Source of the DNA: Stegostoma tigrinum
Taxonomy: Eukaryota
Direction of reading: 5' to 3'
Assembly: GCF_030684315.1 (NCBI RefSeq)
Contig: NC_081392.1
Location: forward strand, 806,001 to 870,000
Length of the DNA: 64,000 nucleotides
In this document: piece after piece, positions 2,462-57,610 of the stretch
How the letters are laid out: the number at the start of each line of letters is the position of its first letter
How positions within the stretch are numbered: the first letter of the stretch is position 1
The notes under the pieces: model-generated
What the model was told of the DNA's origin: nothing
Database searches by the model: none
The model's input: the letters and a program-made list of their open reading frames with translations, nothing else
Program-made: the position numbers and the translations under genes

Positions 2462-2500
2462 GGTTTTTGTTGAACTGCTCCCTCTCTCCGAGTCACTGTG
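2462..2500 (-). other. 23-RSS of V1 (consensus)
   Basis: Minus strand reads CACAGTG (2500-2494), a 23-nt spacer (2493-2471) and ACAAAAACC (2470-2462). Both heptamer and nonamer are perfect. Confidence 0.97.
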
Positions 2501-2974
2501 AAACTCCACGCACAGTAATACACGGCGGAGTGATCAGCCCGGAGGCTGGGAGTCTTCAGGTTGACATCAGAGCCAGTCGCTCTCTTGGCGGTGAAACCGT
2601 CTGTCTTTTCCACTGGAGACTCGTTTTCCGCAGCTGCTGAATAAAACATCAGTTGCAGCTCCTTCCCCTGGTTTTGTCTGTACCAGAGCATGGTACCTGT
2701 ACTCTGCCCCTCCACCGTGCATTTCATTACGACTTGCCCTCCAAGTTTGGAGACAATTCGGGGATCCTGGCGAACAGTCGCGGAGTTCACGTCTGAGAAA
2801 GAAATCGAGAAAGAGATCACTAAACAGGGACAACCTCTTGATGGAGCACAGAAGGAAAGAAAATAGAAATAAATTACAAAGAAACAGATGATAAAGGATC
2901 GGTGATAACAAAAATCATTGCTTCAAAAATCACTCACATTGGAATACGATCATGACAATCAGCAACTGGTGCAT
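2501..2974 (-). CDS. TRBV: T-cell receptor beta V gene segment V1 (TRBV30-like), apparently functional; leader exon 2974-2938, V exon 2792-2501
   Basis: Leader MHQLLIVMIVFQ with GTGAGT donor and ttctcAG acceptor. Spliced V reads YVNSATVRQDP…MKC…WYRQNQGKELQLMFYS…LRADHSAVYYCAWS, with the conserved Cys, Trp and Cys of a V domain, directly followed by a 23-RSS. Confidence 0.93.
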
Positions 2975-3339
2975 CTCTAACTTCGATATTTTCTTGTAAC
3001 AGGAAAATAAACGAAGAAAATGGGTCAAGAGTTGCTGTGCATCAAATCATCTCCTTTGAAAGCAGTTAGGGAGAGACGAAGGGAGGGTCCGAGGAAATGG
3101 TACAAGTGCGAACATGTTCCTTCCTCCATGATGGGAAGCCACGCCCCCTGACTCCAAGACTTGTTTTAAAAGCGGAGCCGAGGGAATCTTGTGGCAAAAT
3201 GGTAGTACCCCTGCCTCTGTGCTAGAAGGCCTGGGTTCGAATTCCTCCTGCTCCAGAGTTAAGTAATAATGTTTTTAACAGATAGATTAGAAATATCTCA
3301 CTGTAGCTCGTAAGAACAAAAGGTTAGAAAAAGATCAGA

Positions 3340-3760
3340 GAGAGATGAAGTACGTGGGCAGAAGAGTGGCAGATACAGTTTAAAGTGGGTCAATCTCATT
3401 GAAACATATAGGACTCTTAACAGTAAATGCTGAGAGGGTGTTTGTCATTATGGTAAGTCCTAGGTGCAGTGGGCAGTCTCCCAATTTAACACTGTGATGA
3501 TGAAGAATTTTTTTCTCTCAAGGTTAGTGAGTCTTTTTCACTCCTTGCCACAGAGAGCTGAGGGGGCAGAGTTTATTGTGTACATTTAAGGCTCAGATAC
3601 ATAATTTCTTGATTGGGAGTACAATCAAGAGTTTCGAGAAAAACGCTGGAAAATGGACATGAGAAATGCCAGTCCAGCACAGATCTTATTGAATGTTGAA
3701 GCAGACCGAAGGGGCTGAATTGGCTGTTCCTACTCTTATTTCTTATGGTTTTATAATCTA
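3340..3760 (+). mobile_element. CR1-type LINE 3' fragment
   Basis: Degenerate ORF2 end plus the 3' UTR motif gaaggggctgaattggctgttcctactcttatttcttatgg. Confidence 0.6.
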
Positions 3761-6099
3761 GGGTCACCACTGTCGGCCACTTCAAAAGAGATTAGAATAT
3801 TTTCTAACTCGTAAGAAACCAGGAACTAGTGATTTTCATGTAATTAAATAGATTTAAAAACTTGAATTTTTACCTTTACTTAATGCGAGTTGAAATATAA
3901 AATGATGAAGGTCATACTTCCTGAGCAGAGTCCATCTGGAACATTTCTTTCTGTTCCATCTTAATACACCTGAGAATTAGGGTATTTTGTTTCTCTTAGA
4001 CGAAATACAAGCTACATTCACCAGGATAATTTTGGGACTTAAAAGTTTAAACCGTGAGTTTATATCAGTTTTCCTTAAGTATAGACAGTTGGGGATAATT
4101 GGATGAGGTTTTATTCGTCTCCCTCCGTGAAAAGAGTTGGAGGTCTGTAAAGGAAGAAAAGGAAAAAGCCAGAGTCAAATGCTCAATAACAAGAATTACT
4201 GTGTGCAAAATGATGAAATAAACTTTGGAGATTCGTCATTCGGGTCATTATTTATTAAAGAAAAGGTGAAAAATAGTAGCACAGAATCTTGGGACCGGAC
4301 AAGCCATTCTTTCCAAATTATTAAAGAAAGCCTGAAAATCATAATGCAAAGAGGTGTTTTGGATAAGCCTTTTGGCTAATCAAAGTTAATATAGCTGTTT
4401 GCAATTGTTCTTTGTGGACTGGAATTCATAGAACAGCGTGAAGGCAACCTTCTCTCTCAGTGGCATTTCTGTGCATTTTCTCAGTGTCTTTGGTTACTTG
4501 TTGTAGATGTCTTCTAGTCAAGATGCTATTGTGTACCACTGGTATTAGAAGTGGCACTTGAATCCCAGCCTCCTGTTATGAAGCTAAGGACACAATCAGT
4601 GCACCCTAAGAGCCTCAAATAATCTTTCATGGTAGGATACGCAGCCTTCTGTACTTTCAACTAACCTGTTCAGAGGTGCTATGACACAGCTCTAGGGCAG
4701 GTAATGTTGCAACCCTTATGGCTCAAAGATTGGGCCACTACCACTGTGCTACAAAAGCCCCCGAATTGTTCTGTTTAATCTTACTGTCGACTAAATACAT
4801 CTGTAATACCAATTAATTATTTCTGTATGGCTTCCTCCCGTTCTTGTGTAAAATATTACCGGGGTGACAGATTTCGCCTGCTCCTGGGCAAGAGGTTCAA
4901 TGCAAGGTACAGGGGATAGCTTTGACGAGCGCCCTCGAATTCTGTGTAGGAGGTTATAAAGTGCCTTAATGGCTTGTTGTTACTGTGTAATCGTCTCGAA
5001 TGGTGCACGATGGCGTTCGAAGATGCTGCTTGGCCCGCCGTGTTCATCCAGCTTCACACCGTGTTATCTCGGATTCTCCCGCATCTGCAGTTCCTATTAT
5101 TCCTGATCCTGTGTAAGTCTGAACTTGGGCTGAATGGATGAATGTTTTCCTCTGGTTCCTTTCGGACATTTTTCAGACATTGTGGAGTTACCTGGTTCCA
5201 GCGTTCCTTTATTGCTTGCCAGCCTATTATTAACATTTCCATTTTTCTATCTATATTTTCTTGATTCTTTCTTTCAGCCTTTCATTTTTTTTCCTTTGAT
5301 GATTAATCAAATCGTTTTGTAAATCCAACGTGTAATAAACGAATACGTAATACGAACTTTGCAATCTTGCTCTAATGTATTTTATCGAAATTCCGGATCT
5401 GTCTTAAAACACCCAACAGTAGTTCCGGGGCAAAGTGTACAGAGGACCGTGTACCCCAAAGACGTTCCGTCCCTTTTATTTCTGCAATAGCAGACGTGCG
5501 CTCCCCTCACCCAGCAGTCAGTCCTGACACGCCGCAATGATGTTGTTATTTCTTCTTCCTATTCTAAAATCATCGAATGCATATCGCAGGAAGAAGCCGG
5601 ACCTTTCCAAACCGTTCATGCTTTGCAATATCCCCATCCCAATATCACTTCATCAAGATGTCTCTCCTCCACATCTGGTTATCCAGCTTCCCCGGTAGCT
5701 CTGCTTTCATGACAATGAACTCTCTGGGTAAAGAATTTCACATTCTTACCATCCTCTGTCTAAAATCTGAATTCCCTGTGGAATTTCTTCTGCATTATCT
5801 TAAATTATTCCCTCGACGTTTGGACGCACCTAACAGTGTAAACGTTTTCCCTGTGTCCACCCACTCAACCATTTAATTCTCCTTGAAGTTTGTACTGGAT
5901 CACCTATAATGTTTGTCCAACCCATACACAGCATGCCCAAATCTTTCGTGATATTTATAAGTTCACTTTTCTTGTGCCACACTTGTTTACTGTTTCAATA
6001 CACCCCCTAATTAATCTTTAATTGGCAACAAAAGCTCCGGCAGATCGAACAAGGCGACGAGCAGCGTTATCCTTCAAAATTATTTTCTGCTGCCTTTGA

Positions 6100-6138
6100 G
6101 CTTTTTGTTGTTGAGCTCCATCTCTCTGAGCCACTGTG
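6100..6138 (-). other. 23-RSS of V2
   Basis: CACAGTG (6138-6132), 23-nt spacer, ACAAAAAGC (6108-6100). Confidence 0.95.
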
Positions 6139-6660
6139 AATACTCCAGGCGCAGTAATAAACAGCCGAATGATTCGCCTGCAGGCTAAGGGACTTTAGGA
6201 TAAACGTCGAGTCATTCGGTCGCTCGGCGGTGAAACCGTCAGCGGCCGCCTCTTCACTCACACTTGGTGCAAGCAACGAGTGAAACATCAGCTGCAGCTC
6301 CTTTCCTGGGGCTTGTCTGTACCAGTACATACGAAATTGTCCTGCTTCCTCCATCGTGCATTTTATTTCCGCACTCTCTCCATGAAGTTTGGAGTCTGCG
6401 GCCGGAGTCTGACGGATAGTTTGCGATTTCACACCTTTTGGGAACGCGAAGAAAGAGATCAGAAAATTCAGACACTCAGGACATGGAAGAGAAAGAATAT
6501 TGAATAAAGGGATCAATTCAGTTAAATATAGGGAAAAGGCAATGAAAAAGGGACCGGGAGTGAAGGTTAGCAAGTAGAAAGGTAACAAAATTCATGATAT
6601 TTTTTATTTATAAAAACCCTTACGGTGAAAACTGATGAACAGAGCGAGCAGCAGATACAT
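6139..6660 (-). CDS. TRBV: T-cell receptor beta V gene segment V2 (TRBV30-like), apparently functional; leader 6660-6624, V exon 6434-6139
   Basis: Leader MYLLLALFISFH with GTAAGG donor and cccaaaAG acceptor. V reads VKSQTIRQTP…IKCTMEEAGQFRMYWYRQAPGKELQLMFHS…ERPNDSTFILKSLSLQANHSAVYYCAWS, followed by a 23-RSS. Confidence 0.93.
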
Positions 6661-7589
6661 CTTGCACTGCATGTTCCCTTTTAAACAAACTTAATCATTG
6701 GTGAGACAACATTCAACACAGTGCTCCTCCCCTCAAGGTAATTGACAACCCAGCTCCTCCCCCCTCACAGACGGCAAGAACTGCAGATGATTACTGCCAG
6801 AGATAACACAGTATGGAGCTGGAGGAACACAGCAGGCCAGGCAGCGTCAGAGGAGCAGGAAAATTTCCTGCTTTCTCTAATCTCCAGGATGTAATGTTGA
6901 GTCTGATCAAACTGGGAAAATGCACCCCACAATACTTTATGTCCAGAAAATATTCCCTGTAACAGGAGGAATCCATAATATAGTGGAATAAACTTAAAAT
7001 TGGAGTTTAAAAGCATGGGGAGTGAAGTAATTAACAGATTCTGAGGAGCGTTTAACAAATTTGATGCTGAAAGTACGCCCGTCATGGGCTGGATTGAAGT
7101 AATCTCAAAACAGGTTTGACTGTTTGAAGACATGGTGAGAGAGGAGCTTCTCTCGAGGATCGTTTGGAAAGCACTTCAAAAGAGAGCAGGAGAAGCTTGA
7201 TCATTGAATGTGTTCAAGATCGAGAGGATTTTGCAGAACACGGGAGTCAAGGATGATTGGGGTTGGGATTTGCAGGGTGGGGGAACAGAAAGGGTACACC
7301 AACAGGCAGGAAATTGGAGATGAAGCCACCTTCAGATTGACCACAATCTCGGTGAATGACGAAGCAGTCTGCTGGAGGCGAATGGCGCACCGCTGCTGAT
7401 ATCTTCAAAGAATAATTCCCTCTGGTATCAGTGACGAGGTGATTTACTACTCCCTGCATAGACTGCATTCAGACTGGATTAGTATTTCTTCGAATTTGGA
7501 AGTTTCCGGTGTTGTCTGAAACAAGCGATTGTTTTGTAATGTGACGACATTGAAAAATACAAAATAAACGCGGTTAAATGTAGATACGA

Positions 7590-7814
7590 GATAATAAAAT
7601 GTGAGGCTGGATGAACACAGCAGGCCAAGCAGCATCTCAGGAGCACAAAAGCTGACGTTTCGGGCCTAGACCCTTCATCAGAGAGCTCTGATGAAGGGTC
7701 TAGGCCCGAAACGTCAGCTTTTGTGCTCCTGAGATGCTGCTTGGCCTGCTGTGTTCATCCAGCCTCACATTTTATTATCTTGGAATCTCCAGCATCTGCA
7801 GTTCCCATTATCTC
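7590..7814 (+). mobile_element. Palindromic Penelope-derived short insertion with 15-bp TSD
   Basis: TAAATGTAGATACGA at 7575-7589 and 7815-7829. Inverted arms 7589-7683 and 7686-7780, plus a 34-nt tail at 7781-7814. The sequence matches the terminal repeat of the Penelope copies at 14128 and 25012. Confidence 0.9.
7681..7722 (+). ncRNA. Minimal type-I hammerhead ribozyme motif (Penelope type); mirror copy on minus strand at 7654-7681
   Basis: gagagct-CTGATGA-A-GGGT(CTAG)GCCC-GAAA-CG-TC-agctttt. This gives the conserved CUGAUGA and GAAA boxes, a stem II hairpin, palindromic ACGU in place of stem III, and predicted cleavage after C7715. Confidence 0.75.
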
Positions 7815-8024
7815 TAAATGTAGATACGAAGCAGGTTGCCCTCTAATTTAATGACTGAACAGTTAAAAGACGATGAAGAGGATTCTCCACCGACTTAAAA
7901 TCAAGCTTCCTGGTATTCCTCTTTCCAAATTCAAGGGAAGCTGAAATATCCTCCTGTTGCTGAATGGCACTAAATGTCCTGTTCCTGCACCTATGTTGTA
8001 AATCATGGACCAAATACGGAATCA

Positions 8025-8165
8025 AAGACTGAAATTGTTGGGAAAACTCAGCAGGTCTGGCAGTATCTGTAGAGAGAAAGCAAAGTTAGCGTTTCAGATC
8101 CTGTGACCCTCCAGCAATTTCTGGTTTTGTTTCTGATTTGCAGCATTCAGTTTTTCGTGTTTTTT
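8025..8165. mobile_element. Short Penelope-terminal-repeat-like element (second family; related copies ~2100-2250, 10610-10850, 12640-12800, 17495-17575, 44845-44975, 55657-55748)
   Basis: Recurrent motif aaactcagcaggtctggcagcatctgtggagagaaa..gagttaacgtttcgggtcc..tgacccttcctcag. Its reverse complement gives CTGAGGAAGGGTCA…CCCGAAACGTT (hammerhead-like core, often decayed). Confidence 0.6.
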
Positions 8166-8198
8166 TGAGCCAAACATTGGGCTGTTTTCATGGCGTCA

Positions 8199-8214
8199 CA
8201 GCGCCCTCTGCTGC
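8199..8214 (-). promoter_or_regulatory. Candidate CTCF-binding site downstream of V3
   Basis: Minus strand GCAGCAGAGGGCGCTG is close to the vertebrate CTCF core CCASYAGRKGGCRS. Motif match only. Confidence 0.45.
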
Positions 8215-8457
8215 TTCTCTGGAGAAACGCAGAGTGAATAATATCCAAGCATTTGGACGATTATACTTCAACAACATTGTAGACTGCATTCCGGACCAAT
8301 CTCATTAATCCGTGTCTCAACTATTTCAGCTGTTGTCTCGCTTTTGTAGTAACTTATTTCAAATTATATTAAAATACGGCCCCTCTGCAGCAGAAAAAAA
8401 ACAGGATGCAGCTCTGCCTTATTCTCTCGAACACAGGTGTTTCCTGCAGTCTTTGGG

Positions 8458-8496
8458 GTTTTTGGTTGAGCTGGTCCCTCTCTCGCTGTCACTGTC
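8458..8496 (-). other. Defective 23-RSS of V3
   Basis: The heptamer reads GACAGTG (8496-8490), so the essential first C is lost. The nonamer reads ACCAAAAAC at a 23-nt spacer, or CCAAAAACC at 24 nt. Confidence 0.85.
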
Positions 8497-9111
8497 TTAC
8501 TCCAGGAGCAGTAATACGTGGCTGAGTGATCCGCTCGGAGGCTGGAAGAGTGCAGGTAGAACACAGGGTCACTCGGCCGCTTCGCGGTGAAACCGTCCAC
8601 AGGCTGGTCTGGATTAATGTGATCTGTGCCTGCAGAGTAGAACATAAATTGTGGCCCCTTCCTGGGGTCTTTTCTATACCAGTACATGTTAGGGTTATTA
8701 GTGCCCTGTACTGTGCAGTTCAGTTCCAGTTCATCCTCGGGAGAGCTGGAGACAACCACGGGACTCTGGTGGATAGTCTGAGAGTCTGCATCTGGAAAAG
8801 AGTAGAAAAACAAATGTGGGGAGTCTTTGTAAACTGGGACTCTCTGGGAAACGACAGAAAGAACGATTGTAACATAGGACAGAAGGAAAAATAGAATGAA
8901 AGAGGAAGACAGAAAGACATGCTTTGAATGGTTGAAAAATATAAAACAAGGTTATTAATTAGACCTCAGAGATAATAAGAACTGCGGATACTGGAGTCAG
9001 GGATAACAGTGTGGAGTTGGAGGAACACAGCAGGCCTTATTAATTAGGCCTATTATGTTTAAGAATTCACTTCCAGTAAAACAAGGTCATTAATCCCAAG
9101 AACAGATACAT
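8497..9111 (-). pseudogene. TRBV: T-cell receptor beta V segment V3 (TRBV30-like), open V exon but defective splice donor and RSS; leader 9111-9075, V exon 8791-8497
   Basis: V exon ADSQTIHQSP…LNCTVQGTNNPNMYWYRKDP…RPSDPVFYLHSSSLRADHSATYYCSWS is intact. Leader MYLFLGLMTLFY is followed by GGAAGTG instead of GTRAG. The heptamer is GACAGTG. A Penelope-repeat fragment sits in the intron (~8968-9036). Confidence 0.85.
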
Positions 9112-10859
9112 TATAAACTTAAAATATTTCGCTGAATATGCAGTGGACCATAAATATGAGTGTGAGTTCATCGGAGGTGCCAATCTGCACTTTAAATTAA
9201 TTGAGGTAAACCTGATGAGCTAAAGGAAGTGGTGTCAATGGACACGTCCCTCCGTCAGAATAAGGCCTCGACAATGCCTCTCATTTGATTCTCTCTGCTC
9301 TCCCTCTTTCTGATATTATAATCTGGGTGTTGCAGGCTGAAGTGATGGATAATGGTGATGGAGGTTCAAAGATCTTTCTGCACATGGCTTCAGAAATTTC
9401 TCTCCTGCATTCCATTGTTCCAGGTTGTACACATTTATTCAGGTTGGTAGACTGTGTTACTGTATATTCGACATACCTTTGTAAATCATCAATGGGGTAT
9501 CAACACCAAGCTGTTGCCCCAGGGACAGTGTTGTTCTTCACTGCACTGCAAATTCTCCCTCCTGATTCTGTACTCCTGTCAAACCAAAATAACAGGCACT
9601 GGTTTGTAGACATTTTAGAGCGCCCCTTTTGGCTGTTCGAAAAAAAGGCATCTAGTGTCGAAAAAAGTTACATTGCTTTCTTTTTTGTTCTGTTTCTTTC
9701 TGTTGTTCTTTATTTCTTCATTCACGTCTGTTTTCTCTAGTTTGTTATTTAATCATTTCCTTCATCCTATGCTTTGCCGTCTTTACCTTTTTGCCTTTGC
9801 CTTTGCCTGGTGCCAGCCAAGCAGACAGGTTTGTCCTGGATGGTGTCAAATTTTATGAGTGCTGTTGGAGCTGTATCCATCCAGGCAAGTGCACAGCATT
9901 CCATCACGCTCTTGACTTGTGCCTTGTAGGTGGTGGACAGGATTTGAGGAGTCAGGAAGTGGGGTACCTACTGATGGATGCCGACACGTTGGAAATAGAA
10001 ATGCGGAAGGATCTGTCAATCAACTGATTAACCACAGACCACGTGGACCGACTGCTAGGTCAGAGTTTTGCCATGGGGAATGCTGTTTCTGTCCTATCAA
10101 TCGGCAGCATCTTGCCATTCTGTATAAATTGGAGTTGCCTGACAAAGTTTGGTTTCTTACATTCAGTCCTGGTGAGTTCAGACAAGAGGAGTGAAATTCA
10201 TGACTCATTTCTAAAGAAACGCTTATATTGTCAAGAAATTAAAGTTGGCTTTCAATCACAAGGACGCTGGAACACGTTGTGCTTCAGTTGCACAAACATG
10301 TGGACTGACTCCATCCGAAACTGATTTAGATCTCGCTGACATGCAGATTCACTAATACGTTCCCTGAGTTATTTTACAGTTAAATTAATATGTTTTGATC
10401 TGTACACTTTTCTTCCATTCATTTGTACATAACAGATTCAATGGTGAGCTGAATGAGTTTTCGAATATACAGATCACAGAGAGAAACTATTTCCCCTGGT
10501 CTGAGGGCATCCAAAATAAAGGGATAAAATGTTCAACATAAAACCTCATAGTTCTTTGTTTGGTAAGTGAATAGTTGGATCAAGAGCGAAGGAATTAAGG
10601 ATAATGAACAAAATCATCAATTGCTGGGGAAGCTCAGCAGTTCTGGCAGCATCTAAGAAGAGAATTCAGAATTAACATTTCAGGTCTGGTGATCCTCCCT
10701 CAGGCAGTCCACTACCATCTTCCTCAGAAGGGTTGGAGATCCAACGCATTATCTGATTTCTGTTCACAAATGCTGCCAGGACTGCTGAGCTTTTCCAACG
10801 ACTATTGGTTTTGTTTCTGATTTACAGCATCCACAGTTGTTTCAGCTTTTATTAAGGAT

Positions 10860-11975
10860 AATGAATGGCTTGTCGTGAAAGTTATGTTGCATGAGACCCA
10901 GGGATAACTAGCTATTCAGATTCAAAATTGGCTCAATGGTGGGAAGCGGAGGGTGATGGTTGAAAGATGTTTCCCAGTCTGGAGGCCTGTGTATAATGGT
11001 ATGCCCCAGGATCGTGCTGGGACCTTTGTTATTTGTTATTTACATAAGTGATCTGGGTGTGATTATACAAGGCATGATTAGTAAGTTTGCGAATGATACA
11101 AAATTAGGAGGTATCATTGATAGTGAGGAAGGTTATCAAAAATTACAGAGGAATCTTGATCAAATGGGGAAGTAGGCCAAGGATTGGCAAATGCAATTCA
11201 ATACAGTTAAGTGTGAGGTAAGCATTTTGAAAGACAAACCAGGATAGGGCTAATTCCGGTTAAATGGTAGGGCCCTGAGGAGTGTTGCGGAACAGAGGGA
11301 CCTAGGAGTAAAAGTTTATCATTCATTGAAAGCAGCATCACAGGTGGGCAGGGTGGTGAAGGAGGCATTTAGCATGCTGGCTTCATCGGTCAAGGCATTA
11401 AGTATAGGAGTTGGGATGTTATATTATCGTAGTATAAGTCAGTGAGGCAGTACTTGGAGTATTGCGTATGGTTTCATTCACCCTTTTGTAGGAAAAACAG
11501 AGTTAAACTGGAAAAGTGTGCAAAGATTTACGAGGATGTTACCAGAACTTGTAGGCCTGATTTACAGAGAATTTATAAGTTGCCCAGGATAGGTCTTTAT
11601 TTCTTGGAATATAGGAAAATTAGGGATGTCCTTACTGAGGAGTATAAAATTATGACAGCCATGGGTAGGATGAATACATATACTGTTTTTTCCCAGGGAT
11701 TTAGAGGGCAAATGATTAAGGTGAGAGGGGAAAGATTTAAGAAGGACCTGAGAGGCAACCTCTTCACACAGAAGAACAGTGCATATATGGAATGGGCTGG
11801 CAGAGAAAGTAGTTGAGACAGGTATAATAGCAGCATTTAGATACATGGATGGGAAGGGTTTCGAGAGATATGGACCAAATGCCACAAATGGAAATAGCTG
11901 AGTGGATAACATGGTCAAAATGGAACAATTAGTCCTGAAGGACCTGGCTCCATGCTGTATTACTCTATGACTCTA
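10860..11975 (+). mobile_element. CR1-type LINE RT/3' fragment
   Basis: ORFs contain [14 protein letters not shown]…ISKFANDTKLGG (RT domains 4-5) and LEYCV.F.SP. It is frameshifted and ends in the tail ctgtattactctatgactct. Confidence 0.85.
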
Positions 11976-12936
11976 CCCATACGCTCAACCTACAGTGGGC
12001 CAACAGTATTCTTATCTTGCCACTTTCTCTTTTTATAACTACAAAGGCTCTTCTTATTGATAAGCCAATGGGTGGATCTTTATTGATATTTGTGTTTGTC
12101 CCAGTCTGTGAGATCTGTACTCATCTTTGGAATTTTACAAGACTTTTCTTTAACTTTTTTGCTGTGCCTTCCCCTATCTAGAAGTGCATAGCATTTTTTT
12201 GAGTAGGTGCTTGCCTTTCTCATGCTTCTGAATAGCATTAAATATTTCTTTGAACATCCTCTACTTTCCTCAGTTGTTTTCCCTGTTAGCAGAGATTCCC
12301 AGTTTTAGCGCGGGCAGTCTCTGCCTCATCCTATGCATATCTTCCTTACTTAAATCTAAATTGAAATTCGATCTCCATAGCCCACAAATTGGTCACTTTC
12401 AAATATACATCCAGCTCTCTTTTGAAGCCTACCATCAAATCCACCACCACCACTTTCTGAGGCAGCACATTCCAAAACCTAACAATACTGAGTAAAGAAC
12501 TTTCTCCTCATCTCATTCCTGCCTCTCTTGCTGACAATATTGAAGTTGTTGGAAATCATTCTGATTTCCCCATCAATCTTTCAGAATTTCTAAGACTTGC
12601 CACTTTCATTTCTCAATGAAACAGACATGTTCAGCTAATAAAAATAAAATACAGAGGATTCTGGAAATCTGAAACAAAAATGCAGTGCTGGAGAAACTCA
12701 ACACATCTGTGGAGGGAGATAGGGACAGAGTTAGCATCTTGAGTCTGGTATAACTGTTCTTCAAATCTGAGACATGTTGAGCATCTCTAGGAGTTAAAAC
12801 CTCTCAGAATCGTTCACTTTTGTTTGCAATTTCTCCAGCGCTACTCAATTTCATTGTCCACTTTCATTTTAACCGATCTCTTCACATCATAGATCTAGGG
12901 TGAGAGGAAACAGCTTTGTTTCCAGCTGCCGTTTGG

Positions 12937-12975
12937 GGTTTTTGCTGAGCTGCTCCTTCTCTCTGAGTCACTGTG
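12937..12975 (-). other. 23-RSS of V4
   Basis: CACAGTG (12975-12969), 23-nt spacer, GCAAAAACC (12945-12937). Confidence 0.95.
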
Positions 12976-13404
12976 AATACTCCAAGCACAAAAATACACG
13001 GCCGAGTGATCCACTCGGAGGCTGGGAGATTTCAGGTTAAATTCGGTGCCGCTCGGTCGCTCGGCGATGAAACCGTTCACCATTTCCTCTGGATTTACGA
13101 TATTGCTACCTGCAGAGTAAAACATGAACTGCGGCTCCTTCCCTGGGCTTTGTCTGTACCAGTAAAGGTTGCTGGTGCCCTGCACGGTGCACTTCAGAGT
13201 CAGATTCTCCCTGGGCATTTTGGAGACTGCAGCGGGAATCTGGTGGATTGTCTGTGAATCCACGACTGCAACAGAGACAGGGAGAAGAGGCAGTCAGTTA
13301 ATGAAGGCAATCAGGGCAGTAAAACAAAATTTTATGAACATAACCAGTGTTTGAGAAAACCCCTTACAGTGAAACATAGTCATTAGACCCATAAACAGAT
13401 ACAT
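12976..13404 (-). CDS. TRBV: T-cell receptor beta V gene segment V4 (TRBV30-like), apparently functional; leader 13404-13368, V exon 13265-12976
   Basis: Leader MYLFMGLMTMFH with GTAAGG donor and ctgttgcAG acceptor. V reads VDSQTIHQIP…LKCTVQGTSNLYWYRQSPGKEPQFMFYS…ERPSGTEFNLKSPSLRVDHSAVYFCAWS, followed by a 23-RSS. Confidence 0.94.
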
Positions 13405-14127: not shown

Positions 14128-15864
14128 GAGACAGTAGGAACGGCAGATGCTGGAGAGTCTGAGATAACAAAGGTGTGGAGCTGGATGAACACAACAGGCC
14201 AAGCAGCATCAGAGAAGCAGGGAAGCTGACGTTTCGGGCCGTGACCCTTCTTCAGAAATGGGGCAGGGGAAAGGGCTTCTGAAATAAATAGGGAGAGAGG
14301 GGGAGGCGGATAGAAGATGGTTAGAGGAGAAGATAGCTGGAGAGGAGACAGACAGGTCAAAGAGGCGGGGTTGGAGCCAGTAAAGGTGAGTGTAGGTGGG
14401 GAGTTAGGGAGGGGATAGGTAAGTCCTGGGAGGACAGACAGATCAAGGGGGCGGGATGACGGTTAGGGAGGCGGGGACGAGCTGGGCTGGATTTGGGATG
14501 CAGTGGGGGGAAGGGGAGATTTTGAACCTTGTGAAGTCCACATTGATACCATTGAGCTGCAGGGATCCCAAGTTGTCCCATTTAATATGAGGTGCTGTTC
14601 CTGCAACCTTCGGGCGGCATCATTGTGGCACTGCAGGAGGCCCATGATGGACATATCATCTCAGGAATGGGAGGGAGAGTTGAAATGGTTCACGACTGGG
14701 AGGTGCAGTTGTTTATTGCGAACCGAGCGGAGCTGTTCGCAAAGCGGTCCCCAAGCCTCCGCTTGGTTTCCTGATGTAGAGGAGGACACACCTGGAAAAG
14801 CAGATGCAGTATACCATATTAGCAGATGTGCAGGTGAACATCTGCTTGATGTGGAAGGTCTTCTTGGGGCTTGGGATGGGGGTGAGGGCAGAGGTGTAGC
14901 GGCAGGTGTAGCACTTCTTGCCGTTGCAGGGAAAAGTGCCGGGTCTGGTGGGGCTGGAGGGGAGTGTGGAGCGGACAAGGGAGTCACGGAGAGGGTGATC
15001 TCTCCGGAAAGCAGACAAGGGTGGGGATGGAAAAATGTTTTTGATGGTGGGGCTGGATTGCAGATGGCGGAAGCGTCAGAGTATGATACGTTGGATCCGG
15101 AGGTTGGTGGGGTGGTACGTGAGGACGAGGGGGATTCTGTTTTGGTTGTTATTGCAGGGAGGGGGTGTGAGGATGAGTTGCGGGAAATGCGGGAGACACG
15201 GTTGAGGGCGTTCTCGGCCACTGAGGTCGGAAGTTGTTCCATTGAAAAACAGGGACATCTGAGATGTTCGGGAGTGGATTAGAACATAGAACATAGAACA
15301 ATACAGCGCAGAACAGGCCCTTCGGCCCTCGATGTTGCACCGACCTGTGAACTAATCTAAGCCCCTCCCTCTACACTATCCCACCATTATTCATATGCTT
15401 ATCCAAGGATTGTTTAAATGCCCCTAATGTGACTGAGTTAACTACATTGGCAGGCAGGACGTTCCGCGCCCTTACCACTCTCTGAGTAAAGAACCTGCCT
15501 CTAACATGTCTTAAATCTATGATCCCTCAATTTGTAGCTATGCCCCCATGCACAAGCTGAAGTCATCATCCTCGGAAAAAGACTCTCACTGTCCACCCTA
15601 TCTAATCTTCTGATCATCTTGTATGTCTCTATTAAGTCCCCTCTTAGCCTCCTTCTCTCCAATGAGAACAGAAGGCCTTCCTGTGAAACCGTTATGGAAA
15701 GTTGTTGCCTCCTCCACTTGGATAACCATCTCCAAACTTGGGAAACTTCCCCAAAATCCTGCTGCTCTGGATTGCCTCATCCTGGAGCAGATGTGACAGA
15801 GGCAGAGGAGTTGGTATAGGGGATGGCATTTTTGCAGCTCATTCAGCTCTACACTTTGTTATCT
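14128..15864 (-). mobile_element. 5'-truncated Penelope-like element (GIY-YIG end + 3' terminal repeat), with inverted terminal piece, TSD and a nested CR1
   Basis: Minus ORF PGTFPCNGKKCYTC…FTCTSANMVYCICFSRCVLLYI is a GIY-YIG region. Hammerhead core CTGAAGA…GAAACGTC at 14255-14228. Inverted repeat piece at ~15839-15864. TSD ctgattaaagaggaa (14113-14127) / ctgattagaggggaa (15865-15879). Confidence 0.88.
15280..15680 (-). mobile_element. CR1-type LINE 3' end nested in the Penelope copy
   Basis: Starts with the (AGAACAT)n tail and is the reverse complement of the 33300-33695 region. Confidence 0.85.
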
Positions 15865-24999: not shown

Positions 25000-27770
25000 C
25001 CTCCCCCATTTCTGAAGAAGGGTCCCGACCCGAAATGTCAAGCTTTCCTGCTCCTCCGATGCTGCTTGGCCCGCTGTGCTCATCCAGCTTCACTCTATGT
25101 TATCTCAGATTGTCCAGCATCGGCGGTTCCTACTATCTCTGTAACAATTTTAACCCCCTGGCAAAACCTCTTCTAAGGATGCCTTCCTTAAAGAAGTTAC
25201 CCTCCTCCCTCCAAAACAACCTCAGTTCATTCTTATCCCACTGCAACCCTCTTGTACTTTCTTCCGTCTTGAAACTGCTCGATCATGCCATAAAGCAAAC
25301 CAGGTACTACAGCCACATTTCCTTTCTCAGTACCTGCCTACAGAACCGGATAATCCCCAACAGACTAAAGTCTACATTTAAACCTTCCAAATTTGGCCCC
25401 AACCGCGACGACCACTATAATCAGAACGTTGATCTCCTACAGAACCGTTTCTCGCTGCAACTTCTGAAACACACACTCACTGCGATGCGCTGACATCTCC
25501 AAATACTGCAATCAAGCCTAACCCAACTCAGAGCCTCCCTCTCCCAGACCTGCAAAGGACCTCTCCTGCTTTTTATCCTTCATAAGATCCACAACCTTAA
25601 CTCTCAATTTTACTTGGCTTTATTAGATTCTAAAAACCTAAAGTACTTTAAACTCACAGGTGCTTGCCACCAAACCCAGAACGTTCCCCATCATTTGCCC
25701 GCCACCATTAGCCACCTTTGGAGCACCAACGGGTTTCACAGATGATGTCACATCCACTGTCACCCGGTACACCACTTCCAGTACAACTGACACCATCATC
25801 CCCACTGCTGATGCCACCACCGTCTCCATTTCCAAGGCCGACACAGACATCGAGGATGCTGCTGCCACCTACACAAGCATCGAGGACACCACTTCCACCA
25901 CCATGCTCAATTTGCTGGCCAACGTTGCTCCGCCCATCGCTGAGGTCATTCCTCCCATCACCGAGATCGCTCCGCCCACTGGCGACTTCATTCCGCCCAT
26001 CGCTGACTTTGCTCCGCCCACCACCAATGTTGGTCCACCTACCGCCGATGTCGCTCTGCTCACCACTTTCACAGCCAGCATCTTGAGACAAAACAATAAT
26101 ACTGAGCCCAGCCAAGTCTTCACCATCCCCCAGACCTCCCCCTTACTGAGGACCAACGGTCAATCCTCAGTAAGGGTCTCACATTTGTTCCCCTCCACCC
26201 ACACATTGATGAATATAAGTCTCGTCTGAATGTTGAGCAGTTTTTCCGCCGCCTCTGCCTCGCGCTTATTTCTTTAATCGTGAGACTAACCCTCCCTCTA
26301 CTGATCCCTTATCCCACCTCCTCCTGGACACCACCCCAAGGCCTCCTACCATCCCTCGACCTCTTCATTTCTAATTGCCATCGAGACATCGATCGCCTCA
26401 GCCTCTCCACCCCTCTCACCCACTCCAACCTCTCCCCCGCAGAACGTGCAGCCCTCTGCTCCCTCGACTTCAATCCCGACCTCATCATTAAACCCGCGGA
26501 CAAGGGAGGTGCAGTTGTAGCATGGCGCACTGACCTCTACATTACTGAGGCCAGAGACCAACTCTCCGACACCTGCTTCTACCATCCCCTGGATCATGAC
26601 CCCACCCCCGAGCACCAAACCATTATCTCCCAAACCATCCACAACCTCATCACCTCAGGTGACCTCCCACCCGCAGCCTCTAACCTCATCATTCCCCAAC
26701 CCTGCGCAGCCTGCTTCTATCTCCTTCCCAAAATCCACAAACCTGACTGTCCTGGTCGACCTATTGTCTCCGCCTGCTCCTGCCCCACCAAACTCATCTC
26801 CACCTATCTTGACTCCATTTTCTCCCCCGTGGTCCAGGAACTCCCCACCTACGTCTGTGACATCACCCATGCTCTCCACTTCCTCCAGAACTTCCAATTC
26901 CCCGCTCCCCAATACCTCATTTTCACTCTGGACATCCAGTCCCTATACACCTGCATTCCCCATGCAGATGGCCTAAAATCCCTCTGCTTCTTCCTGTCCC
27001 GCAGACCCAACCAGTGCCCCTCCACTGCCACCCTCATCCGGTAATCCGAACTCGTCCTCATCCTCAACAACTTCTCAATTAATTCCTCCCACTTCCTACA
27101 GACAAAGGGGGTGGCCATGGGTACCTGCATGGGCCCAAGCTATGCCTGCCTCTTTGTAGGGTACATGGAATAATCCCTCTTCCAAAGCTACACTTGCCCT
27201 ATCCCCCATCTCTTCCTCCATTAAATTGATGACTGTTTTAGCACCACCTCGTACTCCCACAAGGAGATTGAACAGTTCATCCACTTCACTGACACCTACC
27301 AACCTTAAGTTTACCTGGACTATCTCTGACACCTCTCTCTCCTTCCTGGACCTTTCTGTCTCCATCTCTGACATCCACCTGGAAACCAATATCCATTTTA
27401 AGCCTATCGACTTCCACAACTACCTAGAATATTCCTCCTCTCTACCACCTTCCTGTAAAAAGGCCGTACCCTATTCCCAATCCCTTTGCCTCCATCGCAT
27501 CTGCTCCTGAGATGAGGCATTTCACTCCCAAACATCCCAGATGTCCACTTTTTTCAAAAACCGCAACTTCCCCTCCACAGTGATCAAAAATGCCCTCGAC
27601 CTGGTCTTCTGCATTTCCCACAACTCAACCCTCACACCCTCTATCCGCAATAATAACCAAAGCAGAGTCCCCCTCATCCTCACGAACCACCCCACCAACC
27701 TCCAAATCCAACACATCATCCCCAACATTTCCACCATCTGCAATCTGACCCCACTAGCAAAGACAAAGAC
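25000..27770 (+). mobile_element. Near-full-length decayed Penelope-like retroelement (5' terminal repeat with hammerhead, N-terminal domain, RT; GIY-YIG end missing)
   Basis: CTGAAGAAGGGTCCCGACCCGAAATGTC at 25012-25039, with the ORF starting MPSLKKLP shortly after. RT motifs IIKPADKGGAVV, FYLLPKIHKPDCPGRPIVS, FTLDIQSLYTCIPH, QTKGVAMGT and LSFLDL. Several stops and frameshifts. Confidence 0.92.
25918..26064 (+). repeat. 21-bp tandem repeat (7 copies) in the Penelope ORF
   Basis: Encodes ANVAPPI/AEVIPPI/TEIAPPT/GDFIPPI/ADFAPPT/TNVGPPT/ADVALLT. Confidence 0.85.
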
Positions 27771-28035
27771 AAAGAATCCCAAACACATGCACGAGCAGGT
27801 TCAGGAACAGCTTCTTATTAGTCATTATCAGACTGATGAATGGACTGTCTAGCCTCAAATAACACTGACCTTGCTAACGTTGATTTCACCTAGTGCCTCC
27901 CCTGTGCAATATAACCCGCATACCGCTGTCTAAGTCTTTTTGATCTGTACATCCTTTGCTTACTATTATCTGTCTGTACCACTTGTAAACAAAGCTTTCA
28001 CTTTATTTCGGTACATGTGAGAATAAATAAATTAA

Positions 28036-28679: not shown

Positions 28680-31600
28680 TGAATACGGAGGTAGAAGAGG
28701 AGATCTGCTTTGGCTGTCTGTCTTCATGTCATAACAGTTGTGAAAGCAGGGCTGCTGTCTGGGTATAACTTGATAGACGAGAGTCTGCAACTATATTAGC
28801 AAAAACTAACAATTTTTATTAACTTTTTATTAACTTTGTACAAGAGAGCTTTAGCAGAATCCTCACTTTCTTGTTCTAGCTCTATGTGATCTGACATTAT
28901 TGATGATGCAGTTTAGCTGTTAAGCCCATCTACTATACTTCCCCTGAAGTCTTTCACTCTACGCTGAACTGTTTGCTCCTACTCTCACCATTCTGTTAAA
29001 GATTATTTTGCAAAGCACATCAATCTCCAACAATGTTCTAGCTCATTTATGAGGAATTGAAGGATGTATCTACTTCAGTATTATCCCTATGAAAAGCAGG
29101 CACATCAGCAGATGTGTCATCTTCGCACAACAGCTGGCACCGTATACCGGAACACTGATGTTGACTTGAAGACAAAAGTATTGAAGAGTGAGCAAAGAAA
29201 GATTGATTCAAAAGACAAATCTTCAGAACCTAAACCACTAAAAACTCATAAAAGGGACGACAACAAATTTAATCCTCCATTGTTTCACGAGGAAATTTTT
29301 TTTTGAAAAGTGAAGCACTTTTGCCTCCCATGTAGACCTTCACAGCTGTATTCTCCACTCTAATGCAATGATGAAAGAACAATTCAATTCAACATCCAGG
29401 AACAGTCATGTAGCTGGAAAGAAGAATTAAGACTTACTTTGAAGCTTGAGGCTTCTTCCCTGCAGATATTGCCCTGTCAGGAATTCCAGCAGAAAGTAGG
29501 ATTTCGTCATCATCAACATAAGAATAAAGATTCAAGCAAGTAGGTGTTCAGAATGGTTTATCCTTGACTTACCTCTCCTCCATTTAATCTATCCTGTCCT
29601 GAAAGAGAAATTAAAGACCTGTAGTATCCTCCTGTGAACCCAGGTGTGCAGTTTCTCCAACGATGACTGATTCAGCATACTTAACTGAAATTTCTTCTGC
29701 AAGTCCTGAAGAAGAAAGTTTCAAGATTACATCAGCATCTCTATATTATATATATGAAAAGAACTGTTGAATAGGAATAATTCATGTCGATGATTATTTT
29801 TCATTATAAGTGTAGTATGCATATGCGCTTGCAAACTTATAGGAATACCTTCTGCACCCTGAAGCTGAATTGTAAAACTGTGGCATTAAAAGAAGGCATA
29901 ACCTTGTTCCTGCATCTGATTTAAATTTTATTTTCTTACCATTAATCATAATATCTGCACATCAGAAAATGTCCTGTTATTTGGTCATTTGTCCAAGAAC
30001 ACATCATCCAATTCTTGGACAGTTGCAGACTGACAATCACTGTTCACCTTCACTTTCACTTATAATCAATTTATGGCTTTTTGTCACCAAAGGTTGTAAA
30101 GTAAATATTGCATTAAGAAAACAGCAGTTATAGTCTGGGAATAGTGACCATGCTGATCTCTTTGAGAACATTCTCTGGTCTTTCTTTCACCTTATTCACT
30201 GTTGAAGTCTCCATCCAATTGTGTAAAATGGCTCTTATGTTGTGTGACGCTCAGCATTATTCACAGTGAAAGCATTGCATCAATGGAGATTTTCCCATCA
30301 CAACATAGACATGAAGTAACACAGGTCTGCTGTCTTCCAATTGCTATTGATTTCTTACTGCATATTGACTGCTATCTGATTTACAAATGAACCAATTTGG
30401 TTGTCAGGACTTGGGAAAGTTCTTTGGTACTGTATGCTGACAGCTGGTAACAGTCAGAAAGAAAGAAATCAGTGTTTGCTAATTTTGGGTGAATCCACCA
30501 AACTATTGTGATTTCTACCAGTGTCGTGTTGTAGAGTAGGAATTGAAGACATGAGTGACTTTAATACAGTAGGCATTTCTTCCCCAATAACACTAGTAAC
30601 TTTGTTCCTAGTATATTAAATGTTCTTGTTCATATTGCTTCCTCAAGTTAAATTGTGATGTGTCAGGAAAGCATTGTTTCTCCAAATGTGTCCACGCCTG
30701 CCGGATGGCCATGTCAGCAGAAGGTCACTATTTTTGACCTACTATTGAAACATTTTCCGAACATTTTCAGGAATGGTTTTATTGCCCCTTGGTAGCATCC
30801 AAACCAACATGGCTTTTGTGGTCACAGCCTGTCACCATCACTTTCACTTATGATCAATTTATGGCTTTTTGTCGCCAAAAGTTGTAAAGTAAATATTGCA
30901 TTAAGAAAACAGCAGTACCTAGGACTTCGATGTTGTGGCCATTTTGGAGACATGGATAGAGCAAGGTCAGGAATAGATGTTGCAGGTTCCAGGGTTTAGA
31001 TCCTTCATAAAGATCAGGGAAGGTGGTAAAAGAGGGGGAAGTGTGTCTTTGTTAGTCAAGGACAGAATAACGGTAGCTGAAAGAACTTTTGACGAGGACT
31101 TGTCTACTGAAGTGGAATGGGCTGAGGTCAGGAACAGGAGAGGAGAGGCCACACTGCTGGGAGTTTTTTATAGGCCTCCACAAAGTTCCAGGGATGTGGA
31201 GGAGAGGATTGGCAAAATGATTCTGGGCAGGAGTGAAAGGAACAGAGTGGTCATTATGGGAGACTTTAACTTCCCCAACATTGATTGGAAAAGCTCTAAC
31301 TCTAGTACGTTGGATGGATCAGTTTTTGTCCAATGTGTGCAGGAGGATTTCCTGACACGGTATGTCAAAGACCCGACAAGAGGGGAGGCCACACTGGATC
31401 TGGTACTTGGTAATGAACCAGGCCAGGCGTTTGATTTAGTGGTAGGTGAGCACTTTGGAGAGAGTGACCATAATTCAGTTACGTTTAGTTTAGTGATGGA
31501 AAGGGATAGGAACATGCCACAGGGCAAGAGTTATAGATGGGGGAAGGGCAATTATGATGTGATTAGGCAAGACTTAGGAGGCATAGAATGGGGTAGCAAA

Positions 31601-54000: not shown

Positions 54001-54099
54001 CAACTGAGGTACTACAGGAAGTATATCCTAGGATTTTTCCTAACTGGGTGGGAACAAGGTCACAAAGCAGGAGAAGAAATCAAATAATAAAGATAAGGA

Positions 54100-54410
54100 A
54101 TCACAGAATCCCCAAAGGGTGGAAACAGGCCATTCAGCCCAACAAGTCCACAATCGATCCTCCAAAGAGCACCCCACCCAGACCCTCCCCCTACCCTATC
54201 CCTATAACCCTGCATTAATTTAGCATGGCCAATCCACCTAACTTGCACATCTCTGGACTGCAGGAGGAAACCAGAGCACCCAGTGGAAACTCACACAGAC
54301 ACAGAGAGAACGTGCAAACTCAACACAGACAGTTGCCTGGGGCTGGAATCAATCCCAGTTCCCTGGTGCTGTGAGGCAAAAGTGCTAACCACTGAGCCAC
54401 CATATTACCC
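54100..54410 (-). mobile_element. V-SINE (HE1-like) tRNA-derived SINE nested in the Gmr1-like element
   Basis: Minus strand has a tRNA-like head (ggtggctcagtggttagcac), the V-domain gggtgctctggtttcctcc..cagtcca.agatgtgcaagttaggtggattggccatgctaaatt and a CR1-like tail. It is flanked by a gaatcaca direct repeat. Confidence 0.85.
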
Positions 54411-56490: not shown

Positions 56491-56660
56491 CCATGCCAGG
56501 CTGAGAGACTACCATATACTGCCAGAAGACCACCAAACTGTGTTGAGAGATTGCCATGCTGGGCCACTGAGAGATCACTATGCCAGGCCAAGAGGACACC
56601 ACACTGGACCAAGGGGACTCCATGCTGGGCCGGTAGACCACCACGCTGGAATGAGAGACA
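56491..56660 (+). repeat. Degenerate ~21-bp tandem repeat (~8 copies) within an insertion interrupting the Gmr1-like RT
   Basis: Units of the form ccatgc(c/t)(a/g)ggc..agagac.a. Confidence 0.7.
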
Positions 56661-56997
56661 GATTGAATGCATGGTTAATGACAACATAATCAAAATGAGT
56701 TGCAGCAGTTGGAACTCACTCATAGTAATGGTGCCAAAACTGGATGGCACTCAACAATTATGTGTGGCCTAGCACAAAATCTGATTCATATTCTATTTCA
56801 CCTTTGGAAGACTGTAATTAATGGGACAAGCAACTTCTATTTCTAAGTTAAACTACTACTACGGCAGGTACCTTTATCTGAAAAGTAAAGACAATTTTGT
56901 CTTCTGTGACACCAAATGGACTATACCAATTTTAAAAATGCACCAACCACATTTCAACAATGAGCCAATAAAGTCATTTCTGGATAACCCTGTTGTG

Positions 56998-57610
56998 TGG
57001 TGTACGAGAGGGCTAGAATACAAGAGCAGAGATGTAATGCTGAGGCTGTATAAGGCACTGGTCACACCACATTTGAAATATTGTGAGCAGTTTTGGGCCT
57101 GGTATCTCAGGAAGGATATGCTGGCATTGGAGATCCATAGAAGATTTACAAGAATGACCCTGGAGATGAAGGGATTGTAATAAAAGGAGCAGTTGAGGGC
57201 ACTGGGGTCTGTAATCAATAGAGTTGAGAAGGATGATGGGTGTGTAGCTGAAACTTACAAAATATTGAAAGGCTTAGATGGAGTGGACATGGAGAAAATG
57301 TTTCCACTAATAAGAAAGACAAGAATTTGAGGGCACAGCCTCAGTGTGAAAGAATTCACACCTTTCAAACTCTGATGAGGAGGAATTTCTTCAGCCAGAG
57401 GGTATCTAATTTGTTGGACTGATTGCTAAAAAATGCTGTGAAGACCAAGTCATGGACTGTATTTAGGCTAGAAATAGATAAGGCCTTGATTACTAAGGGG
57501 ATCAAGGGTTAAGGGGAGAAGGCAGTGGAAGGAGGTTGAGAAACATATCAGACTTGATCGGTGAGCCAAAGGGGCTAATTCTGATCCTATATCTTATGGT
57601 CTTATATTGC
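56998..57610 (+). mobile_element. CR1-type LINE 3' fragment
   Basis: RGLEYKSRDVMLRLYKALVTPHLKYCEQFW…RRFTRM, with tail atcttatggtcttat. Confidence 0.8.

What the first reader, a model, noticed from the sequence alone, without database searches (positions are those of the whole stretch)
2462..13404. Tandem cluster of TRBV30-like V genes in a shark TCR-beta locus
Seen in sequence: four same-orientation V segments sharing TI/V-H/R-Q, C-T-V/M, WYRQ/K, MF(Y/H)S, R(P/A) and HSA.Y.C(A/S)WS, each with a 37-nt leader and a 23-RSS. Established, recalled from memory: human TRBV30 begins SQTIHQWP…CTVEGTSNPNLYWYRQ and ends CAWS, and is a single gene lying inverted 3' of the C genes. V3 (SQTIHQSP…CTVQGTNNPNMYWYRK) and V4 are strikingly close to it. 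Inference: this V lineage predates the shark/bony-fish split and is a diversified multigene family here. It may sit as an inverted cluster beyond C-beta and rearrange by inversion.
Basis: partly seen in the sequence, partly recalled or inferred. Interest (0 to 1): 0.7.

Follow-up and report, generated by a model that had tools for sequence, protein, structure and literature searches.

The report
Shark inverted TRBV30-type V cluster
Four T-cell receptor beta V gene segments related to the lone backwards-facing human TRBV30 sit backwards behind a constant gene in a two-headed shark locus, so this gene lineage, and likely its odd position, is older than the split of sharks from bony vertebrates.

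Summary
Real. Four minus-strand V segments lie at the stated coordinates. V1, V2 and V4 look functional; V3 has a GG splice donor and a GACAGTG heptamer and is likely dead here. Trees put them, with other shark and ray CAWS-type V, as sister to bony-vertebrate TRBV30-named genes (96/86 and 98/95). They are co-orthologues of TRBV30, not especially V3/V4. To the left, a plus-strand Dβ-Jβ-Cβ cluster (C 39 kb, D 49 kb from the window edge) makes them 3' and inverted, as in mammals. A second, minus-strand D-J-C lies 70 kb further left, with its own inverted TRBV30-type V beyond it. The locus is therefore head-to-head, and V1/V2/V4 could join by inversion (near cluster) or deletion (far cluster). 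No rearranged junction was seen. A separate conventional TRB locus exists on another contig, and all 5 nurse-shark TCRβ records retrieved belong to it. Multi-gene inverted clusters (tuatara, newt) and head-to-head loci (salmonids, pike) are published; nine searches found no shark account. EPHB6, MOXD2 and trypsinogen synteny was not found; a C1s-like gene flanks the locus.

The parts
2938..2974 (-). V1 leader exon (37 nt, GT donor)
   Evidence: a relative's RNA contig joins 2940 to 2791, net 145 nt = this intron
2501..2792 (-). V1 V exon, open, ends CAWS
2462..2500 (-). V1 23-RSS, perfect consensus
6624..6660 (-). V2 leader exon (37 nt, GT donor)
6139..6434 (-). V2 V exon, open, ends CAWS
6100..6138 (-). 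V2 23-RSS, 1 mismatch in nonamer
9075..9111 (-). V3 leader exon; donor is GG instead of GT (likely unspliceable)
   Evidence: the orthologue is spliced at this intron (net 283 nt) in a relative's RNA
8497..8791 (-). V3 V exon, open, ends CSWS; likely non-functional in this genome
   Evidence: Chiloscyllium orthologue P0005 ends CAWSIHS, i.e. intact heptamer
8458..8496 (-). V3 degenerate 23-RSS (GACAGTG; 3 mismatches)
13368..13404 (-). V4 leader exon (37 nt, GT donor)
12976..13265 (-). V4 V exon, open, ends CAWS; CDR1 two residues shorter than V2/V3
12937..12975 (-). V4 23-RSS, 1 mismatch in nonamer

Best explanation
V1-V4 are TRBV30-lineage T-cell receptor beta V segments that lie 3' of and inverted to a plus-strand D-J-C cluster in a head-to-head shark TRB locus, and V1, V2 and V4 likely rearrange by inversion to that near cluster, with deletional joining to the far minus-strand cluster as a predicted second route. 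Shown: the segments, their signals, the two opposed D-J-C clusters, the tree position. Inferred from the 12/23 rule: RAG pairs a V 23-RSS with the 5' 12-RSS of a D(J). With the plus-strand D (51-62 kb away) the intervening DJ-C block flips and the signal joint stays on the chromosome. With the minus-strand D (122-133 kb away) the join deletes the whole plus cluster. V3 is likely a recent, lineage-specific loss of function. The family expanded in elasmobranchs from an ancestral V also inherited by bony vertebrates, where mammals keep one copy.
For: Window = G000:C51:806001-870000. C1-set exons at C51 767.3 kb (+) and 671.9 kb (-). Plus cluster: D GGGACAGGGGG with 5' 12-RSS and perfect 3' 23-RSS at 757.05 kb, 6 J motifs at 757.9-762.1 kb (the last with an in-frame stop), C exon and TM exon with the conserved Lys. 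Minus cluster: D at 686.13 kb with 12- and 23-RSS, 3 J, C and TM exons. The plus C exon is 100% identical to named model P0162, whose tail matches nurse-shark 'T-cell receptor beta chain' records. A profile of V1-V4 plus one paralogue scores 87.9 bits on PDB chains 3hg1_E and 5xov_J, the best chains holding one V domain, against 61.3 and 47.9 bits for the beta and alpha V of the one other TCR whose domain scores were printed; those two chains begin SQTIHQWP. ML trees: shark/ray CAWS V plus bony-vertebrate genes named TRBV30 (donkey, Podarcis, Erpetoichthys) form one clade, 98/95 among 107 rows, SH-aLRT 91 among 103 rows, 96/86 among 57 rows with shark (96/95) and bony (91/92) halves. Holding all shark TRBV together is rejected, p-AU 0.009. 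Two Andrias records named TCR beta carry a CAW-type V on C-beta. A relative's RNA holds spliced leader-V germline transcripts of the V1 and V3 orthologues. Chiloscyllium punctatum models 12171, 12172, 12173, 12175, 12178, 12183, 12185, 12188 on one scaffold length follow the same order: V4, V3, V1, CAAS V, C, then far-arm V. No N in 464 kb, and the two C exons are 55% identical, so this is not a haplotype duplication.
Against: No V-D-J junction for these V was seen: laying one relative's run on V4 showed germline V-RSS contigs only (6 of 13 loose ends and 8 of 16 pieces shown). 0 of 5 nurse-shark and 0 of 1 horn-shark TCR-beta records retrieved use a CAWS V; the nurse-shark ones group with the other locus, C59. 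The only protein joining such a V to shark C-beta (P0001) is a genome model that appears to read through a J RSS, and it uses the far, same-strand C. Trees rest on 97 columns, rows were gathered by similarity to V3, the bootstrap had not settled, and the AU rejection may also come from other shark V grouping with bony-fish V. V1 is as identical to a turtle TRBV10-named V (39%) as to donkey TRBV30 (39%). Mammalian flanking genes were not found.
Confidence: 0.75

Rival explanations
1. The V segments are simply the distal 5' V of the far minus-strand translocon and rearrange only by deletion; their inverted place behind the plus-strand C is a by-product of the plus cluster lying in between.
For: They share the strand of D-J-C at 686-670 kb. 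The Chiloscyllium model P0001 links the V3 orthologue to the orthologue of that C (63% identity against 53% to the plus C).
Against: The plus-strand D has a usable 5' 12-RSS at half the distance. Only one V upstream of the plus cluster in the middle block looks intact (739.8 kb). Inverted 3' V of this clade are expressed in amniotes and newts (PMC11754216, PMC12698447, passages). P0001 is a gene model, not a transcript.
Confidence: 0.15
2. The C51 locus is a mostly silent or decaying second TRB locus; the working shark repertoire comes from the conventional locus on C59.
For: 5 of 9 TRBV30-type members on C51 are broken or have a faulty RSS. All 5 nurse-shark TCR-beta records retrieved use C59-type C and V.
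Against: Both C genes have open Ig and TM exons, both D have full signals; orthologues are kept in Chiloscyllium, whale shark, catsharks, horn shark and rays; spliced germline V transcripts exist in a relative. Nurse-shark cloning with C-specific primers could miss a C only 42-45% identical (inference).
Confidence: 0.07
3. The likeness to TRBV30 is convergence or retained primitive sequence, and the inverted position arose independently in sharks.
For: Identity to TRBV30 is only 39-47%. Antigen-receptor loci invert often (PMC11754216, passage). Flanking genes differ from tetrapods. TRBV30-type pseudogenes also lie upstream in normal orientation at 717 and 724 kb.
Against: Three trees recover the joint clade with conventional TRBV, TRAV/TRDV, TRGV and VH rows present. 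TRBV30-type V lie inverted behind both C genes, and the C59 locus, which has no such V among those found, has no inverted V in 90 kb behind its C.
Confidence: 0.12

Closest known systems
Mammalian TRBV30 (single inverted V 3' of TRBC; rearranges by inversion)
   Same: Same V clade, CAWS end, 23-RSS, position 3' of C-beta in opposite orientation. The mammalian layout is from PMC10464911 (passage).
   Different: Four-plus copies here; a second opposed D-J-C gives a same-strand route; no EPHB6, MOXD2 or trypsinogen flanks found.
3'-inverted TRBV clade of amniotes and amphibians (tuatara 5 genes; newt three inverted clusters; PMC11754216, PMC12698447)
   Same: Several inverted V behind C; these papers report the inverted V as one clade with low bootstrap (passages).
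   Different: Those passages trace the inversion to salmonids and amphibians, not to cartilaginous fish; here the clade supplies 4 of about 7-8 intact-looking V of the locus.
Head-to-head TRB loci of salmonids and pike (PMC10464911)
   Same: Two D-J-C in opposite orientation with V genes in the middle pointing to their own cluster (passage).
   Different: Here extra V flank both C genes on the outside; the two shark C are only 55% identical; bony-vertebrate C-beta form a clade apart from shark C-beta (92/88), so a shared origin is not shown.
Published nurse-shark TCR-beta repertoire (V families with YVEQSP...CAC motifs; PMC5931798 primer table)
   Same: Same chain type, D core GGGACA, C tail.
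   Different: Those V and C match the other locus, C59, a plain V-D-J-C translocon, not the locus of this window.

Membership tests
TCR beta V gene segment (TRBV) | Two-exon V with leader, Cys23-Trp41-Cys104 V domain | tested here: met
   V3 leader lacks a GT donor
TCR beta V gene segment (TRBV) | 3' RSS with 23-bp spacer | tested here: met
   V1, V2, V4 with 0-1 mismatches; V3 fails the first C of the heptamer
TCR beta V gene segment (TRBV) | Linked in cis to D-beta (12/23 RSS, GGGACAGGGGG core), J-beta and C-beta | tested here: met
TCR beta V gene segment (TRBV) | Found rearranged as V-D-J spliced to C-beta | tested here: inconclusive
   one relative's contigs show only germline V-RSS; 0 of 6 shark cDNA-type records use this clade
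TRBV30 / 3'-inverted TRBV clade | Groups with TRBV30 apart from other TRBV, TRAV/TRDV, TRGV, VH | tested here: met
   98/95, 91, 96/86; 97 columns, donkey as the only named mammal
TRBV30 / 3'-inverted TRBV clade | Lies 3' of TRBC in opposite orientation | tested here: met
   V on minus strand at 808-819 kb, C on plus strand at 767-770 kb
TRBV30 / 3'-inverted TRBV clade | Rearranges by inversion | not testable with these tools
   needs thymocyte DNA or long RNA reads; a deletional route to a second cluster also exists
Tetrapod TRB locus (orthology by synteny) | Flanked by EPHB6/TRPV6 and MOXD2, trypsinogen genes inside | tested here: not met
   0 of 14 Eph ligand-domain matches and 0 of 7 Cu-monooxygenase matches on C51; the one trypsin-domain match on C51 among 135 listed (150 of 296 candidates scored) is C1s-like; TRPV6 not tested
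TRAV/TRDV, TRGV or Ig V | Groups with the genome's own alpha/delta, gamma-type or VH segments | tested here: not met
   own C55 and C5 V fall outside the clade; those labels are inferred from motifs and linked C exons

The most novel reading that the evidence does not exclude
The ancestral jawed-vertebrate TRB locus was two-headed, with opposed D-J-C clusters and TRBV30-type V outside each C, as in this shark. The head-to-head loci of pike and salmon would be survivors of it, and the lone inverted human TRBV30 would be the orphaned V of a lost opposite-strand D-J-C. Sharks would also run a second, barely sampled TCR-beta repertoire dominated by TRBV30-type V. Against: bony-vertebrate C-beta form one clade (92/88) apart from an unresolved set of shark C-beta, which fits a shark-only duplication. 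The weaker claim, that the inverted 3' position is ancestral to jawed vertebrates, I put at about 0.65.
Probability: 0.2. Interest if true: 0.75.

Novelty: new variant of a known kind. Interest (0 to 1): 0.52.

Why it matters
Why an inverted V is kept behind TRBC is an open point in the literature I saw (PMC11754216 says a fitness advantage is unclear; PMC12227049 cites the inverted V of beta and delta loci as a mark of ancient duplication). A shark locus with the same V clade in the same place pushes both lineage and layout back to the first jawed vertebrates. It also gives a direct test: the same V can join by inversion or by deletion, and the two outcomes can be told apart by D, J and C sequence. 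It further indicates that at least some sharks have two TRB loci and three C-beta genes, and that the nurse-shark sequences retrieved here sample only one of them.

Tried and rejected
Homologue search with V3 at near lengths: 0 of 1 candidates passed. PDB search with the C exon alone was dominated by multi-domain Ig chains and did not name the C; the full-length relative P0001 did. Sequencing runs: no RNA holder listed for the window's own species; one small-share run of a relative was laid twice and showed no V-D-J junction, which is no evidence of silence. P0001 was considered as a rearranged transcript and rejected: its junction residues match the J RSS spacer and heptamer (my reading). Misassembly was considered and rejected (no N in 464 kb; C exons 72% identical in DNA). 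Flank searches: 0 of 125 selected ORFs from window 13.5 kb to C51 970 kb hit Pfam (125 of the 130 that passed my filter, out of 1257 ORFs in all flanks); EMG1 search found nothing. A divergent catshark C-beta type (P0018) has no close match in this genome (best 34-44%). No earlier scan notes nearby. Three papers were not held: a shark Ig/TCR review, Criscitiello 2010 and a 1994 horn-shark paper; the elephant-shark supplement gave 0 hits for four terms, which may reflect how Greek letters are stored. These unseen sources may already note TRBV30-like shark V or several C-beta.
Full report
1. Observation. The window holds four V exons on the minus strand, with 37-nt leader exons starting at 2974, 6660, 9111 and 13404. 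A 23-RSS pattern with up to three mismatches matches four times in 64 kb, once behind each V; 0.79 matches are expected by chance. V1, V2 and V4 have GT donors, open frames ending CAWS and canonical heptamers. V3 has an open frame ending CSWS, but its donor is GG and its heptamer GACAGTG. The first C of the heptamer is needed for cleavage (established knowledge), so V3 is likely non-functional. Its Chiloscyllium orthologue keeps the heptamer, and a relative's RNA splices it at the same 283-nt intron. The four are 44-61% identical in protein: old duplicates, not a recent tandem burst.

2. The locus. The window is G000:C51:806001-870000. I read C51 506-970 kb without gaps. Two C1-set exons lie left of the window on opposite strands. 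Plus cluster: D at 757.05 kb (12-RSS, GGGACAGGGGG, perfect 23-RSS), six J motifs at 757.9-762.1 kb, the last with a stop, C exon 767.3 kb, TM exon 769.8 kb. Minus cluster: D at 686.13 kb (GGGACAACAGGGAC, 12- and 23-RSS), three J at 685.7-683.8 kb, C exon 672.2 kb, TM exon 670.4 kb. Only one J 12-RSS passed my strict scan; the others show heptamer-like words with weaker nonamers. Order from the left: V 585.9+, 604.5+, 615.9+ remnant, 630.9+, 632.8+ broken; C-J-D minus; V 692-, 700.7-, 708.2-, 716.9+, 724.2+, 739.8+; D-J-C plus; V 798.9-, 803.9- remnant, V1-V4 minus. Middle V point to their own cluster; outer V point inward and are inverted to the nearer C. Nine V are of the CAWS type; four look fully intact (V1, V2, V4, 585.9), 604.5 has a 19-nt spacer, the rest are broken. 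About three or four other V look intact. The plus C exon is identical to NCBI model P0162, named Stegostoma tigrinum, so the species is likely the zebra shark. The two C exons are 55% identical, which excludes a haplotype duplication.

3. Identity of the V. A profile of V1-V4 and one paralogue scores 87.9 bits on PDB chains 3hg1_E and 5xov_J, the best chains with a single V; chains ranked above them hold several V domains. Their V begins SQTIHQWP and ends CAWS; that this is human TRBV30 is recalled, and agrees with the UniRef name of the donkey row used in the trees. A search of 1.84 billion representatives gave 580 hits, 150 listed; 30 were named. Trees of V domains (97 columns): 107 rows, shark and ray CAWS V plus bony-vertebrate TRBV30-type V form one clade at 98/95, bootstrap not settled; 103 rows, SH-aLRT 91; 57 rows chosen by me for balance, 96/86, with shark (96/95) and bony (91/92) halves. 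Partial domains were dropped before each tree, and searches also dropped near-duplicates and most unnamed rows. Holding all shark TRBV together is rejected (p-AU 0.009), though other shark V with bony-fish relatives add to that. V1-V4 are 39, 44, 44 and 47% identical to donkey TRBV30 and 27-39% to four conventional TRBV. They are co-orthologues; V3 and V4 are not specially close.

4. Conservation. Chiloscyllium punctatum models on one scaffold length run V4, V3, V1 orthologues (12171-12173), a CAAS-clade V (12175), a C of the plus type (12178), then far-arm V (12183, 12185, 12188); strands were not visible. CAWS V also occur in catshark, horn shark, manta and stingray models; in catshark and horn shark they share a contig length with a C-beta model.

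5. A second TRB locus. Contig C59 has a plain translocon: many V, one D, four J and one C, all minus strand, with no V in 90 kb behind C. Its C is 39-42% identical to the C51 genes. Four full nurse-shark TCR-beta records group with it (99/92) and a fifth, partial one shares their C start; none uses a CAWS V. The primer motifs in PMC5931798 (passages) also match C59 V families.

6. Mechanism. Shown: anatomy and signals. Inferred from the 12/23 rule: after D-J joining, a V 23-RSS pairs with the D's 5' 12-RSS. For the plus cluster, 51-62 kb away and opposite in strand, this inverts the DJ-C block and keeps the signal joint. For the minus cluster, 122-133 kb away and on the same strand, it deletes the plus cluster. 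I favour inversion to the near cluster as a main route, with deletion also open. One allele would then have two chances at a productive beta chain (speculative). Expression evidence is thin: a relative's contigs hold spliced leader-V transcripts of the V1 and V3 orthologues that run on into the RSS; no junction was seen for V4. P0001 links a V3 orthologue to the minus-type J and C but looks like a gene model.

7. Synteny. No Eph receptor (0 of 14 matches) or MOXD/DBH gene (0 of 7) maps to C51. The left neighbour, 30 kb from the last V, is a C1s-like gene with CUB, EGF, sushi and protease exons. To the right the first Pfam hits are a galectin exon near 998 kb and a T-box exon near 1081 kb; short exons nearer by could have been missed. 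Orthology to the tetrapod locus is therefore not shown by flanks.

8. Literature. Passages read: PMC11754216 (inverted TRBV form a clade with low bootstrap; five in tuatara; also salmonids and some amphibians), PMC10464911 (single inverted mammalian V; head-to-head loci in salmonids and pike), PMC12698447 (three inverted clusters in newt, expressed), PMC12227049 (inverted V after C as a sign of ancient beta/delta duplication), PMC12529555, PMC6795676 (shark TCR described as translocons). Nine searches (listings only, apart from the papers named) gave no description of a shark TRB locus with inverted TRBV30-type V or opposed D-J-C. Three key shark papers were not held, and supplements such as the tree of PMC11754216 were not seen. 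From memory, older horn-shark work reported several C-beta.

9. Verdict. A real, partly novel variant of a known system. Each ingredient is known in bony vertebrates; their joint presence in a shark, and the second locus, extend them to the base of jawed vertebrates. A C-domain tree keeps bony C-beta apart from unresolved shark C-beta (92/88), so the two-headed layout may be a shark duplication. Interest 0.52.

Noticed in passing
G000:C59:6154600-6290000 (L041-L049, L066-L071): A second, conventional TRB translocon (V-D-J-C all minus) whose C and V match the nurse-shark TCR-beta records retrieved; three C-beta exons in the genome in all.
   Followed up: partly
G000:C51:630882-633032 (L018): One intact and one broken V with 23-RSS that fall outside all TRBV clades in the trees, near the gamma-type and VH rows, yet lie inside the TRB locus behind the minus-strand C.
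   Followed up: no
G000:C51:684803 (L013): A J motif with splice donor on the plus strand inside the minus-strand J cluster, without an obvious RSS.
   Followed up: no
G000:C51:523000-556300 (L026-L029): C1s-like complement protease gene 30 kb left of the locus; further single-exon protease genes and a divergent Eph receptor lie on C58.
   Followed up: partly
L023:3357-4975 (G000:C51 about 579-581 kb): Fragmented retroviral-type pol remains (RNase H, integrase core, MLV-type integrase C-terminus) just left of the outermost V; observed only.
   Followed up: no
P0018 (Scyliorhinus torazame model): A CAWS-type V linked to a divergent C-beta-like domain (35-42% to the three C here) with no close match in this genome.
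   Followed up: partly
G000:C51:604764-604810 and 798573-798520: RSS irregularities: a 19-nt spacer behind the 604.5-kb V, and a consensus nonamer only 5 nt behind the heptamer of the 798.9-kb V.
   Followed up: no
window 14400-15300, 25600-27900, 30900-33600, 53800-57300: The rest of the window holds repeat-derived ORF pieces (reverse-transcriptase- and integrase-like by eye) and no further V.
   Followed up: partly
L079:8265-8531, L088:1518-1925, L092:1619-1801: Galectin, T-box and KAP-family NTPase exons in the wider flanks of the locus.
   Followed up: no
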